From: Asterias amurensis
Lineage: Eukaryota
Assembly (NCBI RefSeq): GCF_032118995.1
Contig: NC_092653.1
Coordinates: 7,187,031-7,251,030, forward strand
DNA length: 64,000 nucleotides
Direction of reading: 5' to 3'
A program made the translations under genes and the position numbers. Positions 6,263-55,432 of the stretch are shown one piece after another. The notes below the pieces were generated by a model. The model worked only from the letters and a program-made list of their open reading frames with translations. It had not been told where the DNA came from and did no database searches. Numbering within the stretch: position 1 is the first letter of the stretch; every line of letters starts with the position of its first letter.

Positions 6263-6512
6263 AGGGCCCAATTTCATAGAGCTGCTAGCTAAGCACAAAA
6301 AATTGCTAAGATGAAATTTCTAGCTTGATAAAAACAGGATAACCAGCCAAATTTCCCACGTGATTTTCAGGATAAGCAAACAACAGCTGATTACCAGTAA
6401 ACAAGCAATATGCAACAAATGGAAACTTAGTCGATATAATGCTGTTTATGAAAAAAGGCATTTCATGCTTAGCAAATTTTGGTGCTTAGCAGCTTTATGA
6501 AATTGGGCCCTG
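6263..6512. mobile_element. MITE family A (TIR CAGGGCCCAATTTCATAGAGCTGCT ... AGCAGCTTTATGAAATTGGGCCCTG), ~250 bp
   Basis: Perfect terminal inverted repeats read directly. Confidence 0.85.
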
Positions 6513-6640
6513 TGAGCGCCCATGACATTTATTTGGCTTTATACTTAAACATGGAGGCCTGTAGACGGAGGTTGGAATCACGTTTAGGCCATGTCCATCG
6601 ATCCTTGTCTATCTCTCGATCATTAAGTTAAAAAGATCAA

Positions 6641-6875
6641 GGGGCCAATTTCATAGAGCTGCTTATTTATAAGCAAGAAAATAGCTTGCTTATTTTTCAC
6701 TGGCAAAATTGTCATGCCATATACATTGATTGAGACTGGTATTTAGCTGTTGTTTACTTAGCATAACAATTGAGTGGAGTCTTGGCCATATTGGCCGCGG
6801 TTATCTGATTTTACTAAGCATTTTTTTGCTTGAGCAAAATTTTGTGCTTAAGCAGCTGTATGAAATTGGGCCCTG
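6641..6875. mobile_element. MITE family A copy
   Basis: ggggccaatttcatagagctgctta...gcttaagcagctgtatgaaattgggccctg. Confidence 0.85.
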
Positions 6876-8352: not shown

Positions 8353-8973
8353 TGGGGTGTTGTATAAACGTAAAATACAAGTTCACGTAAAATACAAAAT
8401 GGTAGATATCTGTTGACTAAACAAATTGATCAGACCTAAACGCAATTCAAGAAAATAAATAAACGTATGGTTTCTTACCCCCAAAAGCGTGCATAATTAA
8501 GAGATAAATAAGCTTTTTACAAACACTTTGTATATACACAAATTTGTATAGTTAATTATGGTTGAAAAAATTCAACAAAAGTACTATAATTTAAAGGCAG
8601 GTCTATTTGCTAACTCACTGTCTAAAGAATTTTTCTGGAAACTATAAAGTAAACCATCAAATTCGTCTTCTTCTGTTAAAACATTATCTAAGAACTTTCG
8701 TTGGAAGCCTATTTTGTTTTCAAAAATATATAAGAACATTTTATTTAAGTTTGATTTCATAACTTTCTTGTTTAGGACTGAAAAAAAATGTCATACACTA
8801 CTTTATATGACTGAACACTTCTTTTTTTAATGGACGGCAACAAAATCATAAAATTACTGAACACAGATTTTTCAAAGAAACCATCGTAATTTTGATTAGC
8901 AGAAACTGGTTACCAACTAAATTTCATAAACTTTACATTTTTGCAACTGGTGCCCCCTCAATGTTTTGCTTAA

Positions 8974-9300
8974 AGGCAGTGGACACTATTGGTAATTGCT
9001 CAAAATAATTACTATCATAATCATAAAACCTTTCTTGATTACGAGTAATGGGGAGAGGTTGATAGTATAAAACATTGTGAGAAACAGCTCCCTCTGACAT
9101 TCTGAAGTGAAGTAGTTTTCGAGAAAGAAGTTATTTCCACGAATTTGATTTTGAGACCTCAGATTTAGAATTTGAGGTCTCGAAATCAATCATCTAGCAG
9201 CACACAACTCAGTGTTACCATGGTGTGAAAAGGGTGCTTTTTTCTTTCATTAATATCTTGCGAACCTTTTTTTTTGTACAGAAAGTGTCCAACGGCTTTA
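8974..9300. mobile_element. Family-D-related MITE, diverged/composite. One end has the family-D TIR; the other end (9280-9300) carries a family-E-type TIR (gaaagtgtccaacggctttaa).
   Basis: TTAAAGGCAGTGGACACTATTGGTAATTGCTCAAAATAATTAC at 8970-9010. Internal tttcgagacctcagatttagaatttgaggtctcgaaatc palindrome. Confidence 0.6.
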
Positions 9301-11418: not shown

Positions 11419-11469
11419 TTAAAGCTCTTCAAAGAAGGCAACCCTTGCTTTAGTTGAACCAGATTTTAT
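11419..11469 (-). CDS. NF2: NF2 exon 15, terminal ([16 protein letters not shown])
   Basis: Acceptor ttttcag|ATA, TAA stop. The RVAFFEEL C-terminus is diagnostic of merlin. Confidence 0.85.
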   Translation of the reverse strand: MKSGSTKARVAFFEEL

Positions 11470-14400
11470 CTGAAAAGCAAATAATAAAAAATTAAATTAA
11501 ACATGTTGATATAAACACTAATACTTTTGTTTTGGGGATGTAATATACGACACACTTCGCTCGGTGACGAAACCTGAACCAAAGGTGCTGGGATGGGCTG
11601 AAACTCTGGACCCAAGCTCTGGTGTTGTCAGCAGGAGAGTGTGGGTTCGAATCCCAGTCAGGACAAAACAGTATTGCTTAGCAGAAACAGGGTACCAGCC
11701 AAAATCACATTAGTTTTGCATTATTGAGGCTGGTGCCCAACTCAATTTCTGCCTAGCAAATAAACTTGTAAAAAAGTAATAACTTTGCGAAATTGGGCTC
11801 AGGTAGCTTCATGATGGGATATTCAAAGAAGTCGATAACACAATTCAAAATAAACTTACCCTGACGAGAGTAATGTACTTGGTCTCTCCCCTGTCGATCA
11901 GCTCATTGTGTATTCGATCAAACTCCGTCTCCTTCTCCTCGACCTTCATGACTTCAATCTCCGACTTGAGCTCGTTCAGCTGCAACTGAAGATGTCTGCT
12001 CTTCTCCAGGTAGTCCACCCTGCAGGACGAGACGATCAGACACTGATAATAATTATAATAATAATAGCGCGCATATCCATCACTAAGTGACGCTCAAGGC
12101 GCTTTAACATACAGTATTTTCCTGCAAGGTATGTGCGACTACATAGCGTCCCGTGCCTGGGTGGTTAAGAGCACCGCCCTCAAGCTCAGGAAATAACCCA
12201 CTCCACACACGCAACTGCTGTGGTGCCCTGTGTTTTTGCAAAGTTCCAATACAAATTAGAGTTTTCCTCATAGAAGTGCCCCTAACAAGAGGAAAATGTA
12301 TGTGCCCCTTCAAGAATGGAAACATTACTAGACAATATAATCCTGATAAAATAGAATAAACTGCTGAAAACTGCTTCCCAACCAAATTATGGTACAAATG
12401 CAAACAAAAGTTAGTGGCCTGACGTTTTAAACTAAAGTGAAGGTACACGTTTGGTAATTACTCAAAACAAATATTAACTTAAAAACTGACTTGGTAATGA
12501 GCATTGGAGAGCTGTTGATGGTATAAAAGATTGTGAGAAACGGCTCCCTGTGAAGTAGCATAGATAAAAGAGGTAATTTCTCACTCAAATAACAAAAGAC
12601 TTCTAGCCAGAAGTCTTTTATTCCTTTCTGAAAGCACACAAATTTGTCCAACAAGGGTGTTTTTTCTTTCATCATTTTCTCGCAAATTCGATGACCAATT
12701 TAGCTCAAATTTTCACAGGCTTGGTATTTTATGCTTATGTTGGGATACACCAAGTGAGAAGACTGGTCTTTGAAAATTACCAAACGTGTACCTTCCTTTT
12801 AACCCTAGCAGAGTTATCAACCCTAGTAGTCTTTCTCTGAGGCTAAATGACAACAGAACACATGAATAGGTATAAGTGGAAAAACATAAATAAAGAGAGA
12901 GAGAGAGATTCAGAAAGCACACAGCAAAACACAATCGAAACCTATATACCTTTCTTTTTCAATTTCTTTGGATAGTTTCTCCACATCCCCATCTGTCATC
13001 AGTTCATATGAGTTGCTCTCGCTCTCGATCGCAAAGTCGCCGTCAAGTTGTAGCTTTTCTAGCTCGGAGCTTGTTATAACATGTGCGGACGTGAACTGTT
13101 TGAAAAATAGACACAACATCAGGATGAGTACACATAGTATGAGAAATCATTGCAACGAGTATGTTACTGGAAGAATAATGGCACACCATTGGTTCAATTT
13201 GGAGAGTACATAAATTTGTATTTTATAAGAATTTTCGTTGTAGACCTGAAACTTTTTTGAACAAAAAGTTCTACTAGTCTTGAGAATAGATTAAACCACT
13301 AAATGTGATTGGTGAGTTATTGCATATCGTGCATTAATTTAATGAATCTGGGTATGGGTACAATATTTGTTGCTTAAAAAGTGGCACACTACAGCGACAA
13401 CGAGAACGCTAACAATAATGATGCAAAGAGAACGCATTCTATTGGTTGAAATGCTCCAAGCAGAATACGCCCAAGCTCATTCATAACCAATCGAGGGCGA
13501 TCATTTTTATCGTTTTCATTTTCGTCCTGTATGACCGGGCTTTTACCCTCCCCCTCTATTAGGTCTTCATTGTGTTCTGGGAATCTCAGAAATTCTTAAA
13601 GGAACATTACAGAATTGGTAAGAAAACAAAATCGTGAAGATCACAGATTTACATCAAACTTACACGGTCGAATGATGATGATAGTAAAAAACATCCCTTG
13701 AAATATTTCTGCCTGAAATGCCATATTTGATGAAAAATAAGTAATTTAACTTTGCGTTTGGAGTTTATCGCTCAGTGAGCGTTTTATTCATTCTTATTTT
13801 GGCATCAAAGCAATGCAAAATTTGTAATCGGTTTTTTACTCTATTCTCATGACCCAGATGGCCGATCGATCTCAAACTTCTACAGGTTTGTCAGTTTGTG
13901 TATATGGTGGATTACATAAGTGCTTACAATGCCAGCAACTGTTTTGTTAGCAAAAACCAACTCTGTAATGTTCCTTTAAGAGGATTTGAGGGGAGTACTT
14001 CTGAACAAGAGGACAAGTTAAAGTATGTGAGCATTTTGGGAGGACACCCTGTATAGGCAACAACTGTTGGCCAATGGTAATTAGCATGGCTAATAGACCC
14101 TTCGCATGCGTACAGACCCTATTGATTGGTGCACTCAATTGCATCTGCGTCACGCCGACATGCGCTGCACTCAAAACGTTAGTGAGCATGGGCTATGTGC
14201 TATTTACATATTCCATGGGAAGGGTCTTTTGTCTAAAAGTAGTGCTCACAGAAGCATAGGGGTAGTTTAGGAAAAGTACTCACATCTAGTAGTGGTAATT
14301 TAGTGACTTGGATAAGTTTCTCCTTTGCATTTTTCTCTGCCTCTCTGGCTCGGACCAGTTGCTCTTTTAACCTCTCTGCCTCCATAGCTCTGAAGAAAGA

Positions 14401-17400
14401 ATTTTTTTATTATCACAAATTGTAGATCACAACAAGCCACAATTAGAACCAGTAAAATAAAAACCATGACATAGTTCCCAAAGAACAAAATATACATAGC
14501 AAAGTAGATATATATACACATTGTGTTACCCCGCAGTACCTCAAAAACTACATATTGAATGTTTTTCTTTTGTTGAACAGAAAAAAAATTAATTTGACTT
14601 GTAAAAAGCTAGAATTTTAGCGACGCGATGATGGGTGCCGTTTTTTCCATTCAACGCAAAAAAAATTGCTTTTTGCTTTCGCATGAATTATGAACCAGAA
14701 CCATTTATTTGTGTACTGTTTACCTTCTGTCTGATTCCTCGGCCAACCTTGTTGCAATCATCTCAGCTTCATGAGCTTTCATCTCCATCATTCGCCTCTC
14801 TTCTTCTGTCTATAGTAGGGCGGCAAACAGATATAACAATTAAGACAATGAACACCTTTCAGAGGACATTTTCTAACATTATCAAGAGCGAGTTTTGGCA
14901 ACCCTAACCAGAAACATGTTTGAGCTTTGGTAATTGGACGAGCGTTTTCGCGTGTTCGTTTGAACCGCTGTTCTGACCAAACCGTAACGGACTTGTTGGC
15001 TCGGTTAGGCTTGGTTTTAAAACTGGGTCTTCAATGGCTATTCACACCAGGGCCCAATTTCATAGCGCTGCTTAACAGTAAGTAAATTTTCGTGCTTACT
15101 TTAGCAGAAAAATTTGCTAGGGTGCAGGCGTATTTCACAGGTTAGCAGAAAAATTGGGTGGCCATATTGCGTGTTTACCATGGATTTGCATTGTGACATC
15201 ATTTATTTTAGTGTGATAAGCACCAAAAGGTTAGCATGCCTTACCGAGTGCTTACGGTTAGCAGCGCTATGAAATGGAAATCGCACAGTAAGCACAAAAT
15301 CGGCCGCTAAGCAGTGCTATGAAATTGGGCCCTGGCAGTGTCTAGGCAGTGCAATAATAGCCTGTACCCTGATGCGGTATATCTCAGACTTAGCTTGGTG
15401 AGCCTTCTGCGCAAGGAGCATCGCTTCCTCTTAAGGAAGCCTTAAACAGCCAATTAAAACGGGCAGTGTCTAGGCAGTGCGATAAAGGACCAATCATTCT
15501 CACCTTGATAGCCTGTACCCTGATGCGGTTTATCTCAGACTCAGCTTGGTTAGCCTTCTGCGCAAGGAGCATCGCTTCCTCTTAAGGAAGTCTTAAACAG
15601 CCAATTAAAACCGGCAGTGTCTAGGCAGTGCGATAAAGGACCAATCATTCTCACCTTGATAGCTTGTACCCTGATGCGGTTTATCTCAGACTCAGCTTGG
15701 TTAGCCTTCTGTGCAAGGAGCATCGCTTCCTCCTCAGCTACCTGTGCCTTCTCCCCTAACAACTCTGCCGTCTCCTCCGACCTCATCTGTAAACCGAAGG
15801 AACAAACCAAAAATCCTTCTACTGACTGATCGTTCACTGTGGTTTTGAATGACCCATTTACTTATTTTTTAATTCAATGCTAAAATACTGTATGTAATGT
15901 GTATGTAATAGGGATGATAACGACCTTGATTACTGTTGTACACTGGTTTGTATCCTGACTTTTCATGTTTGTCATTTGTCTGTCCATCCATAGGCCGGGG
16001 GAAAAATTCTGTTGCTTCACCCCGAACCTAGACGTTGCCATTTGTTAAAAGTGCACTTTTAAATCAATTTTCTGTACTGTTAATTTTGATTATAACAGTT
16101 TTTACTATTCTGTGATTTATGGCAGCATTTAAATAAATGCAAACCTAAGCTATGCCAGTGTGCCTTGCGATCTGCAAATAGTCATGTGCATCCCCATGCC
16201 AGTGACAGAAGATGGTGAAAGTAAAACATTTTGGGGATCACTGTGGTCCCACAGACATTGCTTAATTGCGTCAAGGAAATAAATGTGCACACTCTTATGG
16301 GTCCCAATGTTGGAAGTTGTGCATTGATTACAGAATGTAAGGAATATATCTCACCAGGGCATCATGAGCGAGTCTGGCCTCGTCCCTGAAGTGGACCAAC
16401 TGTTTCTCCATGTCCTCTTTATCTCTCTCTGCTTGCTCCCGTAACTGTCTCTCTCTCATCAGCTTATGTCTTTCAATCTGATCGAGAAGATCATGAAAGG
16501 TTACTTTTTAAGTTTCTAGGTTCAGTGGAGTTCATACTTTCCTGCAAATGCGAATGCGAAGCAAATGTTGACGTCACAAATTCGCAACGAATACTTCGCA
16601 GCAGTTCAACTCTGTTCAACTCACTTGCGAGTATCGCTGCGAAAAGAAGGTTGTGATGTCAAATTCTTGTCAAATTCGCATCGCATTCTCATTCACAGGA
16701 AGTATGAACTGGGCTTAAATCTCTTCGAAGGACAAGAGAGGGTGATTTAGTGTTCCTGGTAAACTAGATCATTTTCTGCTTGGTGTTGCATTTCAATCTT
16801 CTTTATCAATCTTTTTTTTTCAGTTTGGGGCTTAAGTAAACCCGATGGGGATGGGGGTGGGAGGGGGGGGGGTTGTAAGGTTACTCTCAGCACATGACCA
16901 ACCCTGTTAATCAATGTTACTCACCAATTTTCATCAAATACTGAAAAAACTTTCAATTCGTTTATTTCAAATCAATTTCATACTTTTCCAAATCAAAATA
17001 AACATGGGTCAATCAATCAGATCAGTTTGTGGTGATTTTTCTTGAGAAAAAAAAGAGTTTAAAGGAAAATAACTGTTTTAAAGAATAATAGCTCTCTGCA
17101 CTAATGTGGATGACGTCACTTTTGCTCAAAATACCTGGCTATCAGACAAAAATTCCACAACTTTAAGAAATCATCGCATCATTGACAAGACAAACTTCTC
17201 TAGAAGTGTATAAAACTTGGTACATGTACGCACATGTATCTTCATGAAATTTGAGACGTTTATCTGAGATCCGGGTAATTGGCCTCTGTTTTTAGCATTA
17301 GTACGAGAGCTATCGACGAGACTTACATGTCTTTTGGCTTTCTCTTCTTTGGCTTGTGCTTTCATCTGTTGGACCTCCATCGTGTCTGCCCTCCTCCTCT

Positions 17401-20400
17401 GCATAAACAGCTCATGGTTGCCGACACAAAGATCCAAAATCTGATTGCAGAATTATATTTTCAAAGTTAACGATAAGACACATTCTTGACAGAACATACC
17501 AATAGATAAATCACTTGCATTGGCTGCCATTCTACAAATTTCGTCAGTTGATGCAAATTCGCCCCAAACAAAGCTAAAAGCTACTCTTGGCTAAGGGTTG
17601 CTAATAGAAAAAATTTAGGATGAAAATAACTCGGGAGAGCTATAGGTAAGTATCCCTTGCATCGATCGCTATTTTAAAACTACTTTTTCTCAATGCAAGT
17701 TTGCACCAAATAAAGCTACTCTAGGTAAGGAGCTACAAATAAAAACAAAATTTACAATAACACTCTAAATTTCCCTCCTGACAACAACTGACAACACTCA
17801 CCAATTTATTAAGTCGTAACCTAGGCGATATGAAACAAAAGTCCGGTGATTTCTTGTCGATCGGCTTGATGGTGAACTACAAGGAGAGAGACAGACAGGA
17901 AAAAAGCTTAGAATTTATCCAGTAGAGACAGAAAATGATTCTTTCCCTTGTATGCCAATTACATTTATGCATGCGTACAGATACCACTGGCTGGCAAACA
18001 CCATAGAGAGACTGCTAGGTCATTCCGATGGCCGTAAAGCCGATGGCCCGCGTGTTTTGCAATGCACGTAAAAGAACTCAGTGCACTTTATTGTGCAGGG
18101 AAGGGGTTCGCTCGGTGTTCATGGTTTTATTGGCAGCATATTGCACCACAGCACCTTGTAAACAATTACATGGTGCTGTAAAAAAAAAGGTTTCATACTT
18201 GAAAACCTAGCTCCTAATACCTTGAAGAAAATACTGAGCGCCTTGACACGCCCCTAGGGGTTTATAAAGCACTATATAAGAACCCAATGATTATTAATGT
18301 TATCATTATTACCTTCTTGTCTTTGTAGGATACATTCCTGATTTCACTCCAGGGAAACGATATCTTTGGTACCAATTTGTTGTCTATTTCATACACGTTC
18401 AGACCCATTGCATCTACACCAAGGTATAAGTCTGTTCCTTTCTCGTTCTGTAGGAAAAACAATCAATCAAGCAAGATTGTATAAATCTCAGCATCACGAT
18501 TACGGTAAGCCCGGGCGACTAGTGGGACTAGTGTCGTAGTCGCGACTATTGATTGATTAGTCGAGACGTAACTACCGTTTAACAACTACCTTCCACCTCG
18601 ACTACTGCTAATTGGTTTGGTGAACCAATTGTGTCGCTATTCACAACAACATAATTTACCTACAAAAACAATCAGACATCAGTGACACAATCCTTCAATC
18701 CTTTTAGCTTGAATTTTATGATATTTCGCCTGCAGCAAACATTGCCACAATGCATCTTGAGAATTAAAAATTAGTTCAGACTTTTTCAGGTGCAACTAGT
18801 CGAGTAGCAAATTTCACAAGTCGGCCAGGCCTAGATTATGGTGGGGTTGCCTTTCACCTCGGTGGAACCCAGTTCGAATCCAGGACCCGAGCCTTGCATC
18901 ACGTGGATGAGGTTTGGGGGCTTTCCTCCCAGATTTAAAACTGACATTTTTTCATCCTCTTTTCTACACTGGTATATTCAGGCCTACAAGTTATACTGCT
19001 GATCACTTTTGAGGGTCCCTTGGTTTTATTTACTACAAAAATATATTAGAGTTGACTTGCCTTTATTTCAAAATAGTTGACGCCGTACATTTCTAGGTCT
19101 TGTGTGATCTTTAAGTACTCCATCTCAGCTTCATCTCTGTGGTAACAACAAGAGCAAAACAGTCAATTCTACGAAACACAGTTAAAACTCTGAAATGGTC
19201 ACCAGTGTTACACATAGTGTGTAGCCAAAATGGCACAGCAGTGTTGTAACTAATTGCAAAAAGTCTGTCAGAGGTTCCAGTTTTCAGTCAATTGCTACTG
19301 TGGATTAATTTTGGCACGACCTTACTTTCCAAAGATCAAAAATATTTGTTCTTCTAAAAAATGAATAGTATATCTTGCAAACACAGCCATAGCTCAGGCC
19401 AAACAAGTTCCCTCCACCCCCCCCCCCCCTTGGCTTTATTAGTTTGTCAACTTCCAACACCCAAGGGAGCTGATCGACTGTCCACCTGAATTCATCCATT
19501 ATTATATTATATTTGTAAAATGACTGCTCATGCAAAAAGTTCCCTGCCATCCCACACACAACTGATTCGAAATTCAGTTCCAAATAAACACCACTGATAC
19601 CCACTAACCGAATGTCATGTTTTTACCTCATGAGTCCCTGGTGTTCGGAGTACCACGCAGTAATTCTCTCCTCCCACATCTCGGCAGTCATGTCAAACTG
19701 TTCCACGACCCGCTGAGGAAGGAGTTCCTCACTCGCCAGGAACCCAGGATGGTGCATGTTGTGATCATAGTCCCCATACTAAAAGAAAATAGAAATTGTA
19801 ATTTCAGTAAACTACAATAGGCCTTTTTGACTTGGGTCCAATTTTCTTTTATAACCAGTGTAAAATAATAAACAGTATTTATACAGTCTCAGTGTTTGAG
19901 TTTAATATAAATGTGTTGAGTGAATGAGAATTCCCTGGAATATTGACTTACGTGGCTTCATATAGAGCTACACTGTAATAGTGTGTTATCAAGTGATGTA
20001 TGACATCAAAGTACAAGTCGAGCTACCGTTCACTGCTAATTTGCCTGTTTTTATCTTATTGAAAATCAATTGAACACAAATGAATAACCCATCAAAATTC
20101 ATCAAAATATAACAGTAAAACTCATCTGCGAAGCCTGGAGCTTCTAGAAATTAAAGTTAAAATTCGTATCACGAAAAATGATGAATGAAATATAAAAAAA
20201 GGGTGGTGATTCGGTCTTGAACCTTCGTTTAAACATTGCAGGGTCATATCAGTGCGATAAAGGACCTAGGCTTTGACTCGGCCATGAACATGCCAGTTTT
20301 AAACGTACATCAAGAGCTTGTCCCACTCTATTATTCCCTCGTTATTGAGCAAAAATCGGACACTTATTTGTTAACAATCTCATAATCTCACCTTGGCCTG

Positions 20401-23400
20401 AACAGCATAAGACGCCAATAAAACTGAGGCCTCCGGAGGGCAGTACACCTCCTCATTCAAGATCTGCTGCTTGACTTGAAGGAAGAATAGATGCTGGGTG
20501 ATCTCCTGGATCAACTCTTCGCTCACTTCCTCCGGATAAAACTTGGCTGCAAACAAGAACGGCATCGGGGACGTCTTAGGGATGCCTTGCTCTTGCACCT
20601 ATTGAGTGGGGAACAAAATTAGATTATAAATTGGTTTTTACCCATTACATGTACACCGATGTGTTTTAGCACCTTATACTCAGTACTTTCCTGAGTTTTG
20701 TGAAAAAATCACAGGCATGTTAATCGGGTGGGATTCGAACCCAAGACCCTTGCAATTCTAGAGCAGTGTCTTACCAACCAACTACACCAACGAGAATGCC
20801 TGAACTGCCTCTAGCTATTGGGCAATCTTGATGGTCTAGTTGGTAAGACACTGCTCTAGAATTGCAAAGGTCGCGGGATTGAACGCCTGTAATTTGTTTT
20901 CATAGAGCTCGCAGAAAGTATGAAGTATACAGTGCTAACACACATCGGTGTAAGGGTAAAAAGACAAATTTAAAATTAGATCAGTTTATCTTTTATTCAT
21001 AGCTTCTCGAGCGTTCAACATCATTGTTACACTTAAGTTACAAATAGAAAAAAGATCCATGCAATTTACAATTTTGCAATTGACTATTGGCATTGATATT
21101 TCTGACACAAGTATTTCTATGGTCCTCAGTGCCACGCCATCTACATGTAGTTTTCTAGCTGGAAAGGGAAAATCTGCACAAAAATATTGCAAATAGTTAC
21201 ACAAAAGTTCAACTTCAGTGTGGGACTGTCTATATGAGCGCATAGCTCACACAACCGATGTCAGTATGGCAGCCCACAGTCATGGCATTTTCTATAAATT
21301 TTCCAATGGAGGTGCCCTTTGCAAATAAAAATGGCCTTGCACTTTTAAAAATGAAATTCCAGGCCTGGAGAATATATCCGTTATTATCCTACTGCATGCA
21401 GGATAAACTCACTTTCTTATCCATCTTAAGCCAGCTGATGTATCCCTTGTGATCGATGAACCGCAGACCAAAGTACCAAGTTTCCCGTAACCCAATGGTT
21501 CTGGCCACCAGGTCAAATAATTGTCGGCCAGTTGCTTTCCACTTTGAAAACAGAAAAAAAACGAATATTCTTTAATCGTTGCAACAAAAACCTCTCAGGA
21601 ATTTGAGGGTTACTTTTACAATGTGTCTCACTGGGAAAAACTTGATATAATGAGAAGAATTTCAAAATGATTGCTGGGTTAAAATTTTGTCACATTTAGC
21701 TCAGGGCTTGAATTTTAGGGTAAAATAGGGCTAGTAGTAGCTCTAAAGCTTTACCGGACAAGAATCTAACTTACAAGAAAATAATCTTAACTTTGAGAAA
21801 GAACATTCTACACAATTTTACATGAAAATTGTTTTATTTGAGCAAGTGCTAAGAGAAGATTGATCTCACTTTGTCTTGTGGGTAAGTAGGCCTACAGTAC
21901 ACATAGGTCAATGTTTTGAAACTCAATAGACCTGATACTAAACAGACTCGAAAGCCAAATTTGAGCACAATTCATGTTTTTTAATTACACAGAAAAAAAC
22001 AAGAAGCTGGAACTGTCCAGTCATGATTTTACTTGTCATGCAAAAAATTTACCCAAGCACTGATCTCATTGTTTTGACATCCAGTGTTCAAGTGCAGTGG
22101 TGCCTGAGTTCCAGTCTCACTGGAAAACATTTATCAAGTCACCAGTTTTACTTCTTTATACCGCTTGTCAAAACCATGCCATGGAAAACAATGTTATCCA
22201 TGGAAAAAAATACCTCATGGACTTAACATAATAAATAACTGATACTAATATAGGCCTACTGTACCATCATTTTTTATCAGTGATTGTTTTGCTAAATAAA
22301 AGATGTTGCTGGTGAACTGTGGTTGCCGTTTAGGAAAAAAATTCAACCAAGTTCAATGGTGTTCACTTAGACAAAACAAAATATCAAACTGGTTGCAACC
22401 TTTACCCTGTGCACACACAAGATACAATGTTACTCAGCAGATAGCAATTTATTGAGTCTACAATGAAAGGATTTAATGTAAATTGTGGAATAGTGTCGTG
22501 GCCGAGCGGTTAAGAGCACCAAATATAAACTCCGAAATTTCTGATCAGCAGAGTGTGGGTTCGAATCCCCAGCCATGGCCATGACTGACACTTGTGTCCT
22601 TAATTAAAAGCAAGACACTTAACCATTGCTTCGTCCTTCGGATGGGACGTAAAGCTGTTGGTCACATGTGTTGTGTAAACGCATGCAAAAGACCCCAGTG
22701 CACGGGTTACCTCCCTCTAATTTTGGAGGGAGGTAGTGTTGATTTGTGTAATTCATAGACGTTAGTAAACCATTGTTTGTTATTGTATGAGAAAGGATGG
22801 CTTTTGCCAGCTTGGTGTTAACATGAATACATTGTATATTATCCCCTTTTGGGAGTTAGCCGAGTTCCCTTGGTTGGAAGGGAAGATCATTTAAACAGAC
22901 AAACATCAAACCAAATGAAAAGAAGAAAAAAACATTTCAGTTCATGGAATCATGGGAAAAGTTTCCGTATGGCGCCACCACTTTTTCATTCGAAATAAAA
23001 TAATATAGTATCTAATTTACCTGATTGATATCCCTTTTTGTAAAAATGAGTGAAAAAGTGGTGGTGCCATAGGGAAAGTTATCCGAATCATGTCATAAGA
23101 GCACCGAACTCAAGCTCTGATGCTTCTGTTCAGCATAGTGTTGGTTCGTGACAATTGTGTCCCTGAGCAAGACACTTAACTGTAATTGCTTCTCTCCACC
23201 CAGGGGTAAATTGGTACCTGTGAGGGCAGAGATGGTTCTTGTGAATGTGATTGATTTAGCCGAGTAGCGCATATTAATGTTGCACAGGCTGCATACTCCC
23301 CACCAGGGAGCTGAGATGGTTCAAGGAGTGAGTTAAGGCCCAGTGACCAGCGGGGTAATAATGTGAAGCGCTTTGGGACGCCCTCCGGGTGTGAAAAGCG

Positions 23401-23783
23401 CTATATAAAAACGGGTTATTATTATTATTCAATGTGAATGTTCATTCATGGTTCATTAGTCTAGAAGGTAACTTCAATTTGTAAATTACATGTACATTTT
23501 ATTGTACAAACGACGCATACAGATAACAGAAACCATGGATTGGAGGTACAAGAACAGACACAAGACAATAATCTTTCTTATCAACACATCTTCAAACAAC
23601 AAAGCTCCCCACTTCTCTTGCTCCCTGCCCCTCCCACTTTGTAAAAAAAAACTTCAAAACAAATGCGATAAATGCTAGAATTGAATTCTTGAAATAACTC
23701 ACGTCTATTCCAAATTCAAGTTCAGCATCCATTGTTGTAACACGGACGCTGAAAGTCTTCGGGTTTCTCCGAAGCACCGACAT
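11419..23783 (-). CDS. NF2: NF2 / merlin (moesin-ezrin-radixin-like tumour suppressor), gene span, 15 coding exons, 1770 nt CDS = 589 aa
   Basis: Exon translations align to merlin over the FERM domain ([136 protein letters not shown]), the coiled coil ([30 protein letters not shown]) and the merlin-specific C-terminus (..[10 protein letters not shown], not the ERM ..EFEAM). All splice junctions are phase-consistent and the total CDS is divisible by 3. Confidence 0.9.
11860..12019 (-). CDS. NF2: NF2 exon 14 ([54 protein letters not shown])
   Basis: Acceptor cctgcag|G, donor AGG|gtaagt. Confidence 0.85.
12440..12794. mobile_element. Family-D-variant MITE (TIR aaggtacacgtttggtaattactcaaaa ... 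ttttcaaagaccagtcttctcacttggtgtatcccaac...) in NF2 intron 13
   Basis: Terminal inverted repeats aaggtacacgtttggtaatt / aattaccaaacgtgtacctt. Confidence 0.65.
12950..13095 (-). CDS. NF2: NF2 exon 13 ([48 protein letters not shown]-)
   Basis: Acceptor aaacag|TTC, donor AG|gtatat, ends phase 2. Confidence 0.8.
14287..14389 (-). CDS. NF2: NF2 exon 12 ([36 protein letters not shown])
   Basis: Acceptor ttcttcag|A, donor GAT|gtgagt. Confidence 0.75.
14724..14809 (-). CDS. NF2: NF2 exon 11 ([28 protein letters not shown]-)
   Basis: Acceptor ctatag|ACA, donor AG|gtaaac, ends phase 2. Confidence 0.75.
15049..15334. mobile_element. MITE family A copy (~285 bp) in NF2 intron 10, directly abutting the exon-10 duplicate array
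   Basis: cagggcccaatttcatagcgctgcttaac...gcagtgctatgaaattgggccctgg. Confidence 0.85.
15334..15735. repeat. Tandem array (3 units, period ~134 bp) that duplicates the 3' portion of NF2 exon 10 plus its splice donor and intron start
   Basis: The unit cagtgtctaggcagtgcgataaaggaccaatcattctcaccttgatagc(c/t)tgtaccctgatgcggtttatctcagactcagcttggttagccttctg(c/t)gcaaggagcatcgcttcctc occurs three times. Only the most upstream copy (on the gene strand) continues into the real exon. Confidence 0.85.
15655..15786 (-). CDS. NF2: NF2 exon 10 ([44 protein letters not shown])
   Basis: Acceptor tttacag|ATG, donor AAG|gtgaga. The 3' part of this exon plus its donor is tandemly duplicated twice in the downstream intron. 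Confidence 0.9.
16355..16477 (-). CDS. NF2: NF2 exon 9 ([41 protein letters not shown])
   Basis: Acceptor gatcag|ATT, donor CTG|gtgaga. Confidence 0.85.
16526..16716. mobile_element. Hairpin MITE family F (~190 bp; TIR CAGTTCATACTTCCTGCAAATGCGAATGCGAAGC) in NF2 intron 8
   Basis: Long inverted-repeat arms. Three copies in the window. Confidence 0.8.
17327..17440 (-). CDS. NF2: NF2 exon 8 ([38 protein letters not shown])
   Basis: Acceptor caatcag|ATT, donor CAT|gtaagt. Confidence 0.9.
17802..17876 (-). CDS. NF2: NF2 exon 7 ([25 protein letters not shown])
   Basis: Acceptor ccttgtag|TTC, donor TTG|gtgagt. Confidence 0.85.
17990..18310. mobile_element. SINE family S2 3' portion in NF2 intron 6
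   Basis: ..ggccgtaaagccgatggcccgcgtgttttgcaatgcacgtaaaagaactcagtgcac..agcactatataagaacccaatgattattaatgttatcattatt. Confidence 0.65.
18313..18447 (-). CDS. NF2: NF2 exon 6 ([45 protein letters not shown])
   Basis: Acceptor cctacag|AAC, donor AAG|gtaata. Confidence 0.9.
19061..19136 (-). CDS. NF2: NF2 exon 5 ([26 protein letters not shown]), with a GC donor (AAG|gcaagt)
   Basis: Acceptor cacag|A. The only phase-compatible donor is a GC-AG type, AAG|GCAAGT. Confidence 0.7.
19627..19778 (-). CDS. NF2: NF2 exon 4 ([50 protein letters not shown]-)
   Basis: Acceptor ttttag|TAT, donor AG|gtaaaa, ends phase 2. Confidence 0.85.
20392..20598 (-). CDS. NF2: NF2 exon 3 ([69 protein letters not shown])
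   Basis: Acceptor caatag|GTG, donor AAG|gtgaga. Matches track ORF 20380..20598. Confidence 0.9.
20625..20945. mobile_element. tRNA-derived SINE (family S1) plus an inverted partial duplicate of its tRNA-like module (20700-20810 versus 20815-20890), predicted to form a ~70-bp hairpin. In NF2 intron 2.
   Basis: Body cgatgtgt(g)ttagcac..tactcagtactttcc(t/c)gagtt(t/c)tgtgaaaaaatcacaggcat. tRNA-like GGTTCGAATCCCACC on the minus strand. Confidence 0.75.
21413..21541 (-). CDS. NF2: NF2 exon 2 ([43 protein letters not shown])
   Basis: Acceptor caaag|TGG, donor AAA|gtgagt, phase 0-0, homology. Confidence 0.85.
22495..22760. mobile_element. SINE family S2 (tRNA-like head gtcgtggccgagcggttaagagcacc..gagtgtgggttcgaatcc plus body ..cattgcttcgtccttcggatgggacgtaaagc..gcatgcaaaagaccccagtgcac..)
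   Basis: Read directly. The body is shared with 23085..23420, 32700..33120, 17990..18310 and 29745..30200. Confidence 0.75.
23085..23420. mobile_element. SINE family S2-related copy ending ..gcgctatataaaaacgggttattattattattc, 280 bp upstream of the NF2 start
   Basis: A tRNA-like head, then ..agcgctttgggacgccctccgggtgtgaaaagcgctatataaaa + (att)n tail. Confidence 0.7.
23703..23783 (-). CDS. NF2: NF2 exon 1 ([27 protein letters not shown]), ATG at 23783, donor gtgagt
   Basis: Homology to the merlin N-terminus. GC/CpG-rich promoter-like sequence lies upstream at 23800-24150. Confidence 0.8.
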
Positions 23784-27063: not shown

Positions 27064-30000
27064 CTATGGAGAAAGAAATGGAACATCAAATTATTATTCA
27101 AATAATCTTGGAAGATATATTCATATTTAATTTCAAACTTAAAGTTTTGAAACTACCAGATGAAAAAAAAGGTGCAAGTTTAATTTTTTTTTGATAGAAT
27201 GTATTAAGCTTTTGGTATTTTTCCAAGCCTTGGCTCAGGCCATTCACTTTTTGTGCTTAAGCAGCTTTTCAAAATTGGACCCCAGGCCCGATTGTATAGA
27301 GCTGCTTAAGCACAGAAAGTGGCCAAGCACCACATACCATGCTTACCGAAATAAGATTACCAACAAAAATACCATGTTATAAGAACTATTTCTGAATTAG
27401 TATGCTGCTAATTTTTGCTAAGAATAAATATGTATAACCAAATTATCTGCTTATAAGCAACTCCACATTGGGCCCGGGGTCAATTTCATAGAGCTGCTTA
27501 AGCTCAAAAAGCAGATTAGCACAGCAACATTATGCTTACCAAAATAAGGTTGCCAGTCAAAATACCATATTCCATGTACAACTATGCCCGATATCCTGCC
27601 CATTTCTGCTAAGCACAAAATTGTTGAGCAACATTTACTGCTTAAGCAGTGCTATGAAATTGGGCCCTGATCTTTTAAGTGCGAGTGTAGAAATAATGTC
27701 CGCAGAAACCTACCTGCATCTCTGGGCCTGACACAGCGATGGCCTTGATGGTATCCGAGCCGATGGACTCAACCATCTTGTTGAACTTGGAGGTTTCGAT
27801 CTCGGACATCTGCCCAGCCTTGTTCACCTCCATCTCGTTCTGTTCAGTGATGTACTTCAGCTCAGCCTCCCGGGCGTTGGTGAGACGGTCCAGCTCAGAT
27901 TCCTGGATGAGAAGGAAGATGTGTAGTGAGGAAATTTAAACAAGGGCCATTGATAAAATTTGATTAACTTCAAATATTTGAAACTATGGGAGACTTTGGA
28001 CCGCTAAGTGACAGCAGACTTATCAGGTATAAATGTCCATTGTTCTGAGCATGCGTACATAACCGAGAACAATGGATTTACCATTAGACTGCTGCCACCT
28101 TGCGATCCGAAACTTCCCATATGGATGTCAACTTTGTGATGAACAGAATGTTTTTACACAGTGATTTATATATTTTTCTCTCTATGCTGTTTACCAGTTT
28201 ACATATTAGTTTTTTATTACAATCTTGTTTACCCTGTGGTGTTTTTTTCCTTTTACCCTGTCTCGCTTTACTTTTAACCCCTTTTAATACATTTTTTTGT
28301 TTCTTTTTTCAAGAAAAGATTTCAGGCACAGAAGTTCAATCAGGGAAATTTAAGAACTTGAGGTGAATATAAAAAAAAGTTTAAAGTTTTTATGTAAATC
28401 ATCATTTTGTATGATACCCGGACATAAAATATGTAAAATTGAAATATATGTTGTTAAATTGACAAATCAGGAAACAACTCACAGCTTCAATCTTTGCAGC
28501 CTCAGCCTTCAGCTTGGCCTGCTCGACGGCAGCTTCTCCCTCGATGCGTGCAGCCTCGGCACGGCTCTGGGCTTCGGCTTTAGCTTGACCGGTACTCTCT
28601 ACGGCTGCGCTGTTGGCCTGGAGGAGGAGCAGCTCCTTACGAGCCTTCTCGGCCTCCGCCTCGTCCATGATCTTCTGGCGCTCCAGACGACCCTTGGCCT
28701 CCTGCTCAAGACGCTCGGCCTCATGTCTGTCATGAACAACATTAACGAATATGTCAAATTGGATTTCTGCTTGGTGTCATCAATGTCATTTTCTGTTTGT
28801 AATGTTAGTTTTTAATGGACCACTGTCAAAGCCTTCTTTGCAACCTGATTGCAAATACTCGGTACACACGTGTTAGGCGTGGAATGAGGTGCATGCTGGT
28901 CTAGCTAGCGATCAAGTTAGCTAGACCAGCATGCACCTCATTCAACATTTAACGCTTACGCAATGGGTATTTGCGAAAAGGTTGATGGTTTAAAATCAAT
29001 TTTATGCTCAAGTGATCGGCTAACTTTTCCTTTATTAAACCACTTTGCTTTAAGGAAACTTTGTCCCCCCATATTTACCTGGCCGTAGCTTCCTGCGAGT
29101 TGGTCGTAATCTCAATAGCCAGCTGAACAGACTTCTGAAGCGCATCTCGTGTACGCTGGTCGACTGGCTCCACTGACTGGATGTCAATGCTGGTGATGAC
29201 CATGTTGTTCTGGGGGAAGTGGAACCGATCCCGTATCTTCAGGTTCTCGTCCATTCCGAAGACGGAGGCACGGATGATTTTTGCAGAGTTCTGTGGAAGA
29301 ATTAAGGGGGAAAATAATCGTACTTTGTTTAAATACAACACAATTTACAATAACGAAATGCCTGGGGGCCAATTTTTATAAAGCAGCTTAAGCAAGAAGT
29401 TATTGCTTTACAATTGTCTGCTATTAAGCAGAAATTATCAGGTTACCAGTCACACATTGCAGATTCTGACATGGTAGTCTGACTGGTGACCTTGTTCTTG
29501 TAAGCATAACTTTGTTGTGCATCTAGGCAGCTCTAAAAAAAATGACCCTGGTAAATGCGACAATATCGTTTCTGTAATCTTTCTCAGCTCCCTGAGGAGT
29601 ATAAGCCTTGCATTCCTAAGGTTTTTTTAAACAAAATATCAACCTCTATCCGTGCAGGTACCTATTTATACTCCTGGTTGAAGAGAAGCAACTACAGTAA
29701 AGCGTTTTGCTCAAAAACAAAAGTGTCACTTGGGCATTAGACAAGACACTACTAACCCATTATTGCTACATCCTTTGGGATTTGATGTAAAGCCATTTGA
29801 CCTGTGTGCGTGCTGAGTAAAACACATCAAAGTACCCAGTTCACATGTTGTTAAGAAAAGGTGTTTACCCTGGTGTTTCTGGCTTACTTGGTTGTGTTAA
29901 ATTTGTGCCAAGCACCTTGTAAAGATGCCAAATATATGGGTCTTATAATAAACATAACAGAGATGCCCTGCCAGGCCAGGAATTTCATCTGTGAGAGGGC

Positions 30001-36904: not shown

Positions 36905-37230
36905 TGTGAATAGTCAGCCTGAAAACAGAAAGAGTAACAATAATAAATACAAACATTTATAAAGCGCATCCTATCCAATGGTTAGAATTAGAAGGCGCGG
37001 CACTGCCTCGTTTGGATCTGTCAGCCATTGTGATTAGTCAGTCTGAAAACAGAAAGAGTCACAATAATAAATACATGAATATTTATAAAGCGCATTCTTT
37101 ATCCAATGGGTAGCGGCACTGCCTCGTTTGAACCTGTCAGCCATTGTGAATAGTCAGACTAAAAACAGAAAGAGCTGAACAATAATTAATACAAATATTT
37201 ATAAAGCCGCATATTATCCAATGGTTAGAA
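36877..37230. repeat. Tandem triplication (period ~118 bp) of the MVP first-exon start (first ~35 nt of CDS including the ATG), the 5'UTR and the TATA/CCAAT promoter unit
   Basis: Three near-identical units, each containing ccattgtga(a/t)tagtcag(c/t)ctgaaaacagaaagag..aataaatac..atttataaagcgcat..tatccaatgg + cggcactgcctcg(c/t)ttgga(c/t)ctgtcagccattgtg. Starts at about 36877, 36994 and 37113. Confidence 0.85.
36950..36985 (-). promoter_or_regulatory. MVP: Putative MVP core promoter: TATA-like (minus-strand ctttataaa, 36956-36963) and CCAAT box (36975-36979), about 50-75 bp upstream of the ATG. The same unit is repeated twice more upstream.
   Basis: Motifs read directly from the sequence. Their position relative to the ATG at 36904 is appropriate for a short 5'UTR. 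Confidence 0.4.
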
Positions 37231-44878: not shown

Positions 44879-54955
<10,077 letters not shown>

Positions 54956-55018: not shown

Positions 55019-55432
55019 CAGGGCCCAATTTCATAATGCTGTTGAGCAGAAATTACTGCTTGACAAACTTCTTTACTAAGCAAAAATTGATTGGGCACCA
55101 GCCACAACAATGCAAACTTAATGTACTTTTGGATGGTAACCTGATTCTGCTAAGCAGTACTAACTTGTTTTTAGCGAACTTTTGTGCTTACAGGTTTTAT
55201 GCCGATAAGCAAACTGCTTCCTTTAACAGAAAATTTTGCGAAGGTTTAAGCGTATTTCACAGCTTACATTATGCACCATGGATTTGCATTGTGACGTCAT
55301 TCATTTTCGTGCAGTAAGCATTGGAAGGTTAGCACACCTTTTTGTGTGCTTACGGTTGGCAGCGCTATGAAATTGAAAATGTACAGCAAGCACAAAATCG
55401 ACCATTAAGCAGCTCAATGAAATTGGGCCCTG
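55019..55432. mobile_element. MITE family A, long/composite copy (~410 bp), immediately 3' of the protease gene
   Basis: cagggcccaatttcataatgctgttgagc...gcagctcaatgaaattgggccctgc. The internal segment is shared with the 15049..15334 copy (ttgcattgtgac(g/a)tcatt(c/t)atttt). Confidence 0.8.

What the first reader, a model, noticed from the sequence alone, without database searches (positions are those of the whole stretch)
15334..15735. Partial exon + splice donor of NF2 exon 10 duplicated twice in tandem inside the downstream intron
The last ~70 nt of NF2 exon 10 (coding ..[25 protein letters not shown]) together with its donor (AAG|gtgagaatgattggtcc..) and ~60 nt of intron is repeated as three 134-bp units. 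The two intronic copies keep intact GT donors but lack the exon's 5' part and acceptor. They are decoy 5' splice sites a few hundred bp downstream of the real one, directly abutting a family-A MITE (15049-15334). This looks like a footprint of unequal recombination or replication slippage, possibly MITE-associated, and a potential source of cryptic splicing.
Basis: seen in the sequence. Interest (0 to 1): 0.55.

Follow-up and report, generated by a model that had tools for sequence, protein, structure and literature searches.

The report
Exon-end tandem duplication in starfish merlin intron
In the sea star merlin (NF2-like) gene, a 151-base piece spanning the end of one exon and the start of the next intron has been copied in tandem, leaving one intact spare splice signal inside the intron; this is a real but ordinary, probably harmless relic of a known kind.

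Summary
The repeat is real, but some details in the finding are wrong. The window is Asterias DNA, and the minus-strand gene encodes a protein identical to NCBI 'merlin-like [Asterias amurensis]'. The last 81 nt of coding exon 10, its donor and 70 nt of intron form a 151-bp unit, not 134 bp. It is present 2.65 times, at 15735-15336. Copy 1 is the real exon end. Copy 2 is complete and carries an identical donor (AAG|GTGAGA, GT at 15503-15502). Copy 3 has a 23-nt deletion that removes its donor, and it ends against a 289-bp MITE. So there is one decoy donor, not two. A. rubens shares the same copy1/copy2 junction but keeps only 31 nt of copy 2, so the duplication predates the species split and has decayed independently. 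Patiria, Acanthaster and another sea star have a single copy. Every splice route I examined through the copies adds a length that is not a multiple of 3, and the two translated hit an early stop. The annotated protein uses the upstream donor. The junctions contain no MITE sequence. The closest known case is the human F7 intron-7 minisatellite, whose pseudo-donors are silent. I found no RNA data to test decoy use. Verdict: genuine, ordinary, low interest.

The parts
11419..23783 (-). Coding part of the merlin/NF2-like gene, 15 coding exons, 590 aa.
   Evidence: Splice-site model. Identical to NCBI 'merlin-like [Asterias amurensis]' P0001. Pfam FERM_N/M/C, ERM_helical and ERM_C.
15655..15786 (-). 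Coding exon 10 (132 nt, phase 0), encoding [44 protein letters not shown].
   Evidence: Same 132-nt exon and same intron position in A. rubens, Patiria, Acanthaster, L002 and L007.
15585..15735 (-). Repeat copy 1: last 81 nt of exon 10 (15735-15655) plus 70 nt of intron 10 (15654-15585). The first 3 nt differ from the other copies, so homology effectively starts at about 15733.
15653..15654 (-). Authentic donor GT of intron 10 (AAG|GTGAGA, 8/9 match to MAG|GTRAGT).
   Evidence: The annotated protein joins ..VQAIK to TEEERR...
15434..15584 (-). Repeat copy 2: complete 151-nt intronic copy. It differs from copy 1 at 4 of 148 positions. The exon-like part encodes the same 27 residues.
15502..15503 (-). 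Decoy donor GT in copy 2 (AAG|GTGAGA). It is identical to the real donor from -9 to +42.
15336..15433 (-). Repeat copy 3: truncated and decayed. A 23-nt deletion removes the donor. The 3 substitutions in the exon-like part are all non-synonymous, and there is 1 in the intron part. It ends at ..GCACTGCCTAGACACTGCC, lacking the last 29 nt of the unit.
   Evidence: (D2 spacing 128 versus 151).
15047..15335 (.). MITE of 289 bp with 28-nt terminal inverted repeats (27 of 28 complementary) and no long ORF. It abuts the truncated end of copy 3.
   Evidence: I1. 16 termini in the window versus 0.19 expected. No target-site duplication recognisable. ORFs at most 52 aa.
14905..15046 (-). Unique intron segment of about 140 nt between the MITE and the conserved 3' part of the intron. 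It is absent from A. rubens.
14810..14904 (-). 3' part of intron 10, shared with A. rubens (89% over 95 nt), ending in the acceptor ..ctactatag.
14724..14809 (-). Coding exon 11 ([28 protein letters not shown].).

Best explanation
This is a decaying intronic tandem duplication, a minisatellite-like array of 2.65 units of 151 bp. Its first unit straddles the exon 10 / intron 10 boundary of the Asterias merlin (NF2-like) gene.

Most likely history:
- A 151-bp segment (81 nt of exon, the donor, 70 nt of intron) was duplicated head-to-tail in an ancestor of A. amurensis and A. rubens. Replication slippage or unequal exchange is the inferred mechanism.
- Because the duplication begins inside the exon and ends inside the intron, the reading frame and the first donor are untouched, and all extra copies lie within intron 10.
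- The spliceosome pairs the exon-10 acceptor with the first donor downstream (15654/15653). Copy 2, with its sequence-identical donor, is removed as part of the intron. This step is inferred.
- The extra copies evolve without constraint and are being eroded. In A. amurensis, copy 3 lost its donor through a 23-nt deletion, lost its last 29 nt, and now abuts a MITE.
- In A. rubens a deletion of about 0.65 kb, with 2-nt (TA) microhomology, removed everything except 31 nt of copy 2.

Shown: the anatomy, the gene identity, the junction shared between the two species, and the single copy in more distant sea stars.
Inferred: which donor is used in vivo, the neutrality of the copies, and the direction of the A. 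rubens / A. amurensis indel.
For: - Array: TRF period 151, 96% matches, score 703. Copies are in register.
- Gene: 15-exon model gives a 590-aa protein identical to NCBI 'merlin-like [Asterias amurensis]', with one difference (Q405R) from A. rubens. It has the FERM and ERM domains and matches merlin, ezrin and moesin structures.
- Shared junction: A. rubens (L001, and an independent metagenome contig L006) has the identical junction cttccttaa|GAGGAAGC followed by 31 nt of copy 2. That is then joined directly to sequence equal to window 14906 and downward, with a 2-nt overlap.
- Outgroups: Patiria (L008), Acanthaster (L009) and an unnamed sea star (L002) have a single exon-end copy.
- Decay: all 3 substitutions in copy 3's exon-like part are non-synonymous, and it carries the 23-nt donor deletion.
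- Divergence: copies differ by about 3-4%, similar to the 4-5% between the two species in this region. This argues against an assembly artefact. The A. amurensis assemblies are PacBio HiFi (PMC11090083).
- Splicing consequence: use of the copy-2 donor with retention adds 151 nt, which shifts the frame and reaches TAA inside copy 2.
- Only two strong donors exist in the array.
- Precedent: in the human F7 intron-7 minisatellite, identical downstream pseudo-donors stay silent and the most upstream one is used (PMC1557585).
Against: - No transcript data could be obtained, so use of the upstream donor rests on the annotated protein and on analogy.
- The duplicated-splice-site literature is not unanimous. 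PMC1557585 itself cites opposite results, and from my own knowledge a 'proximity' preference for the 5' site nearest the 3' splice site has been reported. So the decoy could be used to some extent.
- The direction of the A. rubens / A. amurensis difference (deletion versus expansion) is not fixed by an outgroup. The 140-nt segment has no homologue in any fetched locus.
- The MITE has no recognisable target-site duplication, so the event that truncated copy 3 is unresolved.
- Only one A. amurensis haplotype was seen.
Confidence: 0.8

Rival explanations
1. The decoy donor in copy 2 is used. The array then acts as a source of unproductive merlin transcripts degraded by nonsense-mediated decay (alternative 5' splice site, or a 79-nt poison exon using the weak acceptor ccttaag|AGGAAG). 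This would either be a mild splicing burden or a way of tuning merlin dosage in A. amurensis.
For: - The copy-2 donor is identical to the authentic one from -9 to +42 and scores 8/9 against the consensus.
- It lies closer to the 3' splice site, which some duplicated-site experiments favour (my own knowledge; conflicting reports are mentioned in PMC1557585).
- In both lineages deletions have removed decoy donors: the 23-nt deletion in copy 3 and the large deletion in A. rubens. This could be read as selection against decoys.
Against: - Every route adds a length that is not a multiple of 3 (151, 119, 91 or 79 nt). The 151-nt and 79-nt routes, which I translated, run into an early stop.
- The arrangement is not conserved in A. 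rubens.
- The annotated protein uses the upstream donor.
- No read-through or alternative product was found in the protein collection.
- The F7 precedent shows silent pseudo-sites.
- Two deletions are too few to infer selection.
Confidence: 0.12
2. The duplication was caused by the adjacent MITE, through transposon-associated repair or recombination between MITE copies.
For: The MITE directly abuts the truncated end of copy 3 and lacks a target-site duplication. This suggests some rearrangement at its border.
Against: - Both unit junctions are MITE-free and identical to each other.
- The same junction exists in A. rubens with no MITE at this place.
- The MITE sits at the distal end of the array only. 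At most it explains the truncation of copy 3, not the duplication.
Confidence: 0.05
3. The array is an assembly artefact, such as false expansion of a repeat or haplotype collapse.
For: Only one A. amurensis sequence was available. Exact look-ups of window ORFs in other assemblies found nothing.
Against: - The copies differ at specific positions (about 3-4%) and by a 23-nt deletion.
- The whole array (400 bp) is far shorter than HiFi reads (PMC11090083).
- The diagnostic junction is present in two independent A. rubens sources.
Confidence: 0.03

Closest known systems
Human F7 (coagulation factor VII) intron-7 37-bp VNTR minisatellite (Borensztajn et al. 2006, PMC1557585)
   Same: It is a tandem array whose first unit spans the exon-intron boundary, so the authentic donor is followed by sequence-identical donor pseudo-sites inside the intron. 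In F7 these stay silent and the most upstream site is selected.
   Different: The unit here is 151 bp rather than 37 bp. There are only 2.65 units with one surviving pseudo-donor, against 5-9 in F7. Copy-number polymorphism and actual donor choice were not tested here. The organism is an echinoderm and the gene is merlin.
Experimental tandem duplications of 5' splice sites in globin genes (cited in PMC1557585 as refs 40-42)
   Same: Two identical donors compete for one acceptor. This locus is a natural version with 151-nt spacing.
   Different: It is natural rather than engineered, and the outcome here is unknown. Published outcomes differ between systems.
Tandem exon duplication giving mutually exclusive or extra exons
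   Same: Coding sequence has been copied in tandem within a gene.
   Different: The copies here have no acceptor and lack the 5' 51 nt of the exon. The unit length is not a multiple of 3, so no alternative protein can result.
Intron gain by tandem duplication of an exonic AGGT segment (for example PMC2891723)
   Same: A tandem duplication involves splice signals.
   Different: The intron here is old. It has the same position in all echinoderm loci examined. The duplication lengthened an existing intron and did not create one.

Membership tests
Junction-spanning intronic minisatellite with 5' pseudo-sites (F7 IVS7 type) | A tandem array whose first unit contains the exon-intron junction. | tested here: met
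   Copy 1 is 15735-15585 and includes the exon end at 15655 and the donor at 15654/15653.
Junction-spanning intronic minisatellite with 5' pseudo-sites (F7 IVS7 type) | Downstream units carry donor sequences identical to the authentic donor. | tested here: met
   Met for copy 2 (AAG|GTGAGA at 15503/15502, identical from -9 to +42). Copy 3 lost its donor through a 23-nt deletion.
Junction-spanning intronic minisatellite with 5' pseudo-sites (F7 IVS7 type) | Only the most upstream donor is used physiologically. | not testable with these tools
   No transcript-derived sequences were retrievable. The annotated protein is consistent with this.
Junction-spanning intronic minisatellite with 5' pseudo-sites (F7 IVS7 type) | Variable copy number within the population (VNTR). 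| not testable with these tools
   Only one A. amurensis haplotype was available. Copy content does differ between A. amurensis (2.65 units) and A. rubens (1.2 units).
Merlin / NF2 (ERM superfamily) | FERM_N, FERM_M and FERM_C, followed by the ERM helical domain and the ERM C-terminal domain. | tested here: met
   All five Pfam domains score above their cut-offs. PDB matches to merlin, ezrin, moesin and radixin reach E about 1e-140 to 1e-168.
Merlin / NF2 (ERM superfamily) | Orthology to merlin rather than to ezrin, radixin or moesin. | tested here: met
   The best database relatives are all named merlin, NF2 or merlin-like: identical to the A. amurensis entry, one residue different in A. rubens, and 63-73% in other deuterostomes and insects. 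No explicit phylogeny was built.
MITE (miniature inverted-repeat transposable element) | Short, non-coding, bounded by terminal inverted repeats, and multi-copy. | tested here: met
   289 bp with 28-nt terminal inverted repeats, 27 of 28 complementary. 16 termini in the window versus 0.19 expected. ORFs at most 52 aa.
MITE (miniature inverted-repeat transposable element) | Target-site duplication flanking the element. | tested here: inconclusive
   No consistent target-site duplication at this copy or at five other paired copies.
Tandem exon duplication (alternative or mutually exclusive exons) | The duplicated unit carries both splice sites and preserves the reading frame. | tested here: not met
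   The unit starts inside the exon with no acceptor. 151 nt is not a multiple of 3, and there is a stop inside copy 2.
Intron gain by tandem duplication | The intron is absent at this position in relatives. | tested here: not met
   The intron follows ..AIK in A. rubens, L002, Patiria, Acanthaster and L007, and in the ORFs P0122-P0135.

The most novel reading that the evidence does not exclude
The copy-2 donor, identical to the real one and nearer to the acceptor, is used at an appreciable rate in A. amurensis. In that case a recently fixed junction-spanning duplication lowers merlin output through nonsense-mediated decay. The independent loss of decoy donors (the 23-nt deletion in copy 3 and the 0.65-kb deletion in A. 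rubens) would then reflect purifying selection against decoys. Together with the acceptor-side duplication of the same exon in another echinoderm (L007), the locus would be a natural test of splice-site choice rules outside mammals.
Probability: 0.1. Interest if true: 0.45.

Novelty: new member of a known kind. Interest (0 to 1): 0.22.

Why it matters
Mostly it does not: this is an intronic relic with no sign of function.

It has three modest uses:
- It is a clean natural example, outside mammals, of two identical donors 151 nt apart competing for one acceptor. The sister species has lost the decoy. One RNA-seq alignment could therefore show whether the 'most upstream donor wins' rule described for human F7 holds in an echinoderm.
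- It is a caution for gene annotation. Homology-based predictors could pick the wrong donor or call a spurious exon.
- The intronic copies preserve older states of the exon (GCG and CAG codons), which helps to polarise substitutions between A. amurensis and A. rubens.

Tried and rejected
- Transcript evidence. Protein-collection searches with the read-through ORF and with the spliced exon 10-11 peptide returned only genomic or metagenomic ORFs, none spliced. An exact look-up of the A. amurensis merlin protein and of two window ORFs found nothing on record.
- More Asterias DNA. Two metagenome scans, one with the junction pattern and one with the exon-end/donor pattern, were empty.
- Productive alternative isoforms. 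I examined retention to the copy-2 donor (+151 nt), copy 2 as a cassette exon using the AG at ..cctag|..tttaag| or ..ccttaag| (119, 91 or 79 nt), and the exonic cryptic donor CAG|GTAGCT at 15741 joined to copy 2 (-10 nt). None of these lengths preserves the reading frame, so all were rejected.
- Structured or non-coding RNA in the intron. There was no Rfam match at E<=1. The array folds no better than shuffles, z = +2.5.
- MITE target-site duplication, to reconstruct the pre-insertion site. None was recognisable.
- Outgroup homology for the 140-nt segment, to polarise the indel. None was found.
- Dispersed-repeat origin of the unit. The 151-nt unit occurs nowhere else in the window.

Full report
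**What is in the sequence**

Reading 14700-16300 and running Tandem Repeats Finder shows one strong array at 15357-15732. It has period 151, 2.5 copies, 96% matches and score 703. It is the top tandem repeat of the whole 64-kb window; only one other array scores above 150. A gap-free repeat search gives the same 151-nt register. It also finds a 24-nt terminal piece at 15334-15357 whose spacing to the next copy is 128 instead of 151, which is the signature of a 23-nt deletion.

On the minus strand the array reads as follows:
- Copy 1 is 15735-15585: 81 nt of coding sequence, the donor AAG|GTGAGAATGATTGGTCC, and 70 nt of intron in total.
- Copy 2 is 15584-15434, a complete 151-nt unit.
- Copy 3 is 15433-15336.
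- Copy 3 lacks CAAGGTGAGAATGATTGGTCCTT, which is its donor. It stops at ..GCACTGCCTAGACACTGCC, 29 nt short of a full unit.
- Copy 3 is directly joined to an element with 28-nt terminal inverted repeats (15047-15074 and 15308-15335).

**The gene**

I placed the splice sites by hand. The resulting 590-aa protein has FERM_N, FERM_M, FERM_C, ERM_helical and ERM_C domains. It matches solved merlin, ezrin, moesin and radixin structures.

The protein is identical to NCBI 'merlin-like [Asterias amurensis]' and differs by one residue (Q405R) from the A. rubens protein. The window is therefore almost certainly A. amurensis DNA.

- The repeated exon is the 10th coding exon (15786-15655, 132 nt, phase 0).
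- The next exon is 14809-14724.
- Intron 10 is 845 nt.
- The annotated protein joins ..VQAIK to TEEERR.., which means it uses the first donor.

- The unit is 151 nt (81 exon + 70 intron), not 134.
- Only copy 2 retains a donor, with GT at 15503-15502.
- A scan for donor-like GTs in the array finds just three sites: the authentic site at 15654/15653, the copy-2 site (both AAG|GTGAGA, 8/9 to consensus), and a weaker exonic CAG|GTAGCT at 15741.

**Comparative evidence**

The A. rubens locus (L001) has exon 10, the same 70-nt intron piece and the same junction cttccttaa|GAGGAAGC. After that it has only 31 nt of a second copy. This is joined directly to GGGTTGCCAAAAC.., which corresponds to window 14906 and downward. 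The two alignment blocks overlap by 2 nt (TA).

- An independent marine-metagenome contig (L006) has the same A. rubens-type structure.
- An identical junction in both species means the duplication arose once, before they split. One genome paper estimates that split at about 28 Mya (PMC11090083).
- Relative to the window, A. rubens lacks 646 nt: the rest of copy 2, copy 3, the MITE and a 140-nt unique segment. Its intron 10 is only 193 nt.
- Patiria miniata (L008), Acanthaster planci (L009) and an unnamed sea star (L002, exon 86% identical) have a single copy of the exon end. Their intron sits at the same position, so the duplication is specific to the Asterias lineage.

I favour a deletion in A. 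rubens over stepwise growth in A. amurensis, at about 70-75%. A 31-nt exon fragment is most simply a remnant of a full unit, and the breakpoint shows microhomology. However, the 140-nt segment has no homologue in any fetched locus, so no outgroup settles the direction.

**State of the copies**

- Copy 1 and copy 2 differ at 4 of 148 positions.
- The two differences in the exon part are synonymous changes on the real exon (GCG to GCA, CAG to CAA). With A. rubens as reference, copy 2 preserves the older state.
- Copy 3 has three substitutions in its exon-like part, all non-synonymous (N to H, E to K, N to Y), one in its intron part, and the 23-nt deletion. This is the pattern of unconstrained sequence.
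- Divergence among copies (about 3-4%) is similar to the between-species divergence in this region (4-5%). That fits an origin around or before speciation and is incompatible with a simple assembly artefact.

**Consequences for splicing**

These are inferred, not observed.
- If the first donor were skipped and the copy-2 donor used, 151 nt would be added. The frame shifts and a TAA is reached inside copy 2.
- I also considered copy 2 as a cassette exon through any of the three AGs in the 70-nt spacer (119, 91 or 79 nt), and the exonic cryptic donor joined to copy 2.
- None of these preserves the reading frame. The array therefore cannot add protein diversity. At most it could produce transcripts destined for nonsense-mediated decay.
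- No Rfam family matches the region. The array has no excess RNA structure (z = +2.5).
- A small inverted repeat, CTTCCT-TAAG-AGGAAG, is created at each unit junction.

**Role of the MITE**

The element belongs to a family with 16 termini in the window against 0.19 expected. It sits only at the distal end of the array. Both unit junctions are free of MITE sequence. No target-site duplication is recognisable here or at five other paired copies. The MITE, or a rearrangement at its border, may explain why copy 3 is truncated. It does not explain the duplication.

**Comparison with what is known**

The closest described case is the human F7 gene. A 37-bp minisatellite begins with a unit that spans the exon 7 / intron 7 boundary, so 5-9 identical donors follow one another. 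Only the most upstream one is used, and the others are functional but silent (PMC1557585).

The Asterias array has the same anatomy with a longer unit and a single surviving pseudo-donor. Donor choice and copy-number polymorphism, the other two hallmarks, could not be tested here. The same paper notes that earlier duplicated-site experiments gave conflicting answers, so silence of the decoy is likely but not certain.

The array is not a tandem exon duplication, because it has no acceptor and the unit is out of frame. It is not an intron gain, because the intron position is conserved.

**Attempts that failed**

No transcript-derived or additional A. amurensis sequence could be retrieved.

**Verdict**

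This is an ordinary, decaying tandem duplication that spans a splice junction: a new example of a known kind and of low general interest. It has a small value as a natural test of 5' splice-site choice, which one RNA-seq alignment would settle.

Noticed in passing
L007:1494-1666 (ENA ERZ26052449, unnamed echinoderm): The orthologous merlin exon in another echinoderm carries an 87-bp tandem duplication (2.0 copies, 94%) on its ACCEPTOR side. About 45 nt of intron, the acceptor cttcag and the first 42 nt of exon are repeated upstream. 87 nt is 29 codons, and the ORF P0131 reads through both copies. This is a mirror image of the Asterias donor-side duplication, in the same exon.
   Followed up: partly
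window 19059-19060 (minus strand), after coding exon 5: Intron 5 of the merlin gene has a GC donor (AAG|GCAAGT). The same GC donor is present in A. rubens and Acanthaster planci. Patiria miniata has GT.
   Followed up: partly
window 6264-6873, 8333, 15047-15335, 24848, 27476-27667, 31889, 48150, 55021-55430, 60318-60544: This is a MITE family with the terminus (C)CAGGGCCCAATTTCATAG. It has 16 termini in the window (0.19 expected) and six apparent pairs of 190-410 bp. No consistent target-site duplication could be recognised. A related copy (71% identity) lies in the unnamed sea star contig L002 at 834-1083.
   Followed up: partly
window 15433-15735 versus L001:11228-11412: The intronic copies act as molecular fossils of the exon. 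Copies 2 and 3 keep GCG and CAG where the A. amurensis exon now has GCA and CAA. A. rubens has CGG (Arg) at that second codon, which is the only protein difference between the two species (Q405R).
   Followed up: yes
window 15576-15591 and 15425-15440 (minus strand): Each unit junction creates a short inverted repeat, CTTCCT-TAAG-AGGAAG. It appears as a small hairpin in the predicted centroid fold. It could hint at how the breakpoints were chosen, or it could be chance.
   Followed up: no
window 36997-37228: This is the only other sizeable tandem repeat in the window: period 116, 2.0 copies, 86% matches.
   Followed up: no
L003, L004, L005, L006 (ENA marine metagenome assemblies, including TARA and SOLA samples): Sea star nuclear gene fragments (merlin exon 10 with flanking introns) turn up as short contigs in marine metagenome assemblies. 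L006 is A. rubens-like, 96-97% identical to the window.
   Followed up: no
L001:4847-5234 and L001:17424-17832 versus window 45866-46252 and 8888-9265: A dispersed repeat of about 390 bp is present in A. rubens merlin intron 1 but not at the orthologous place in the window. It has copies elsewhere in the window (84-86% identity). This is another lineage-specific insertion in the same gene.
   Followed up: no
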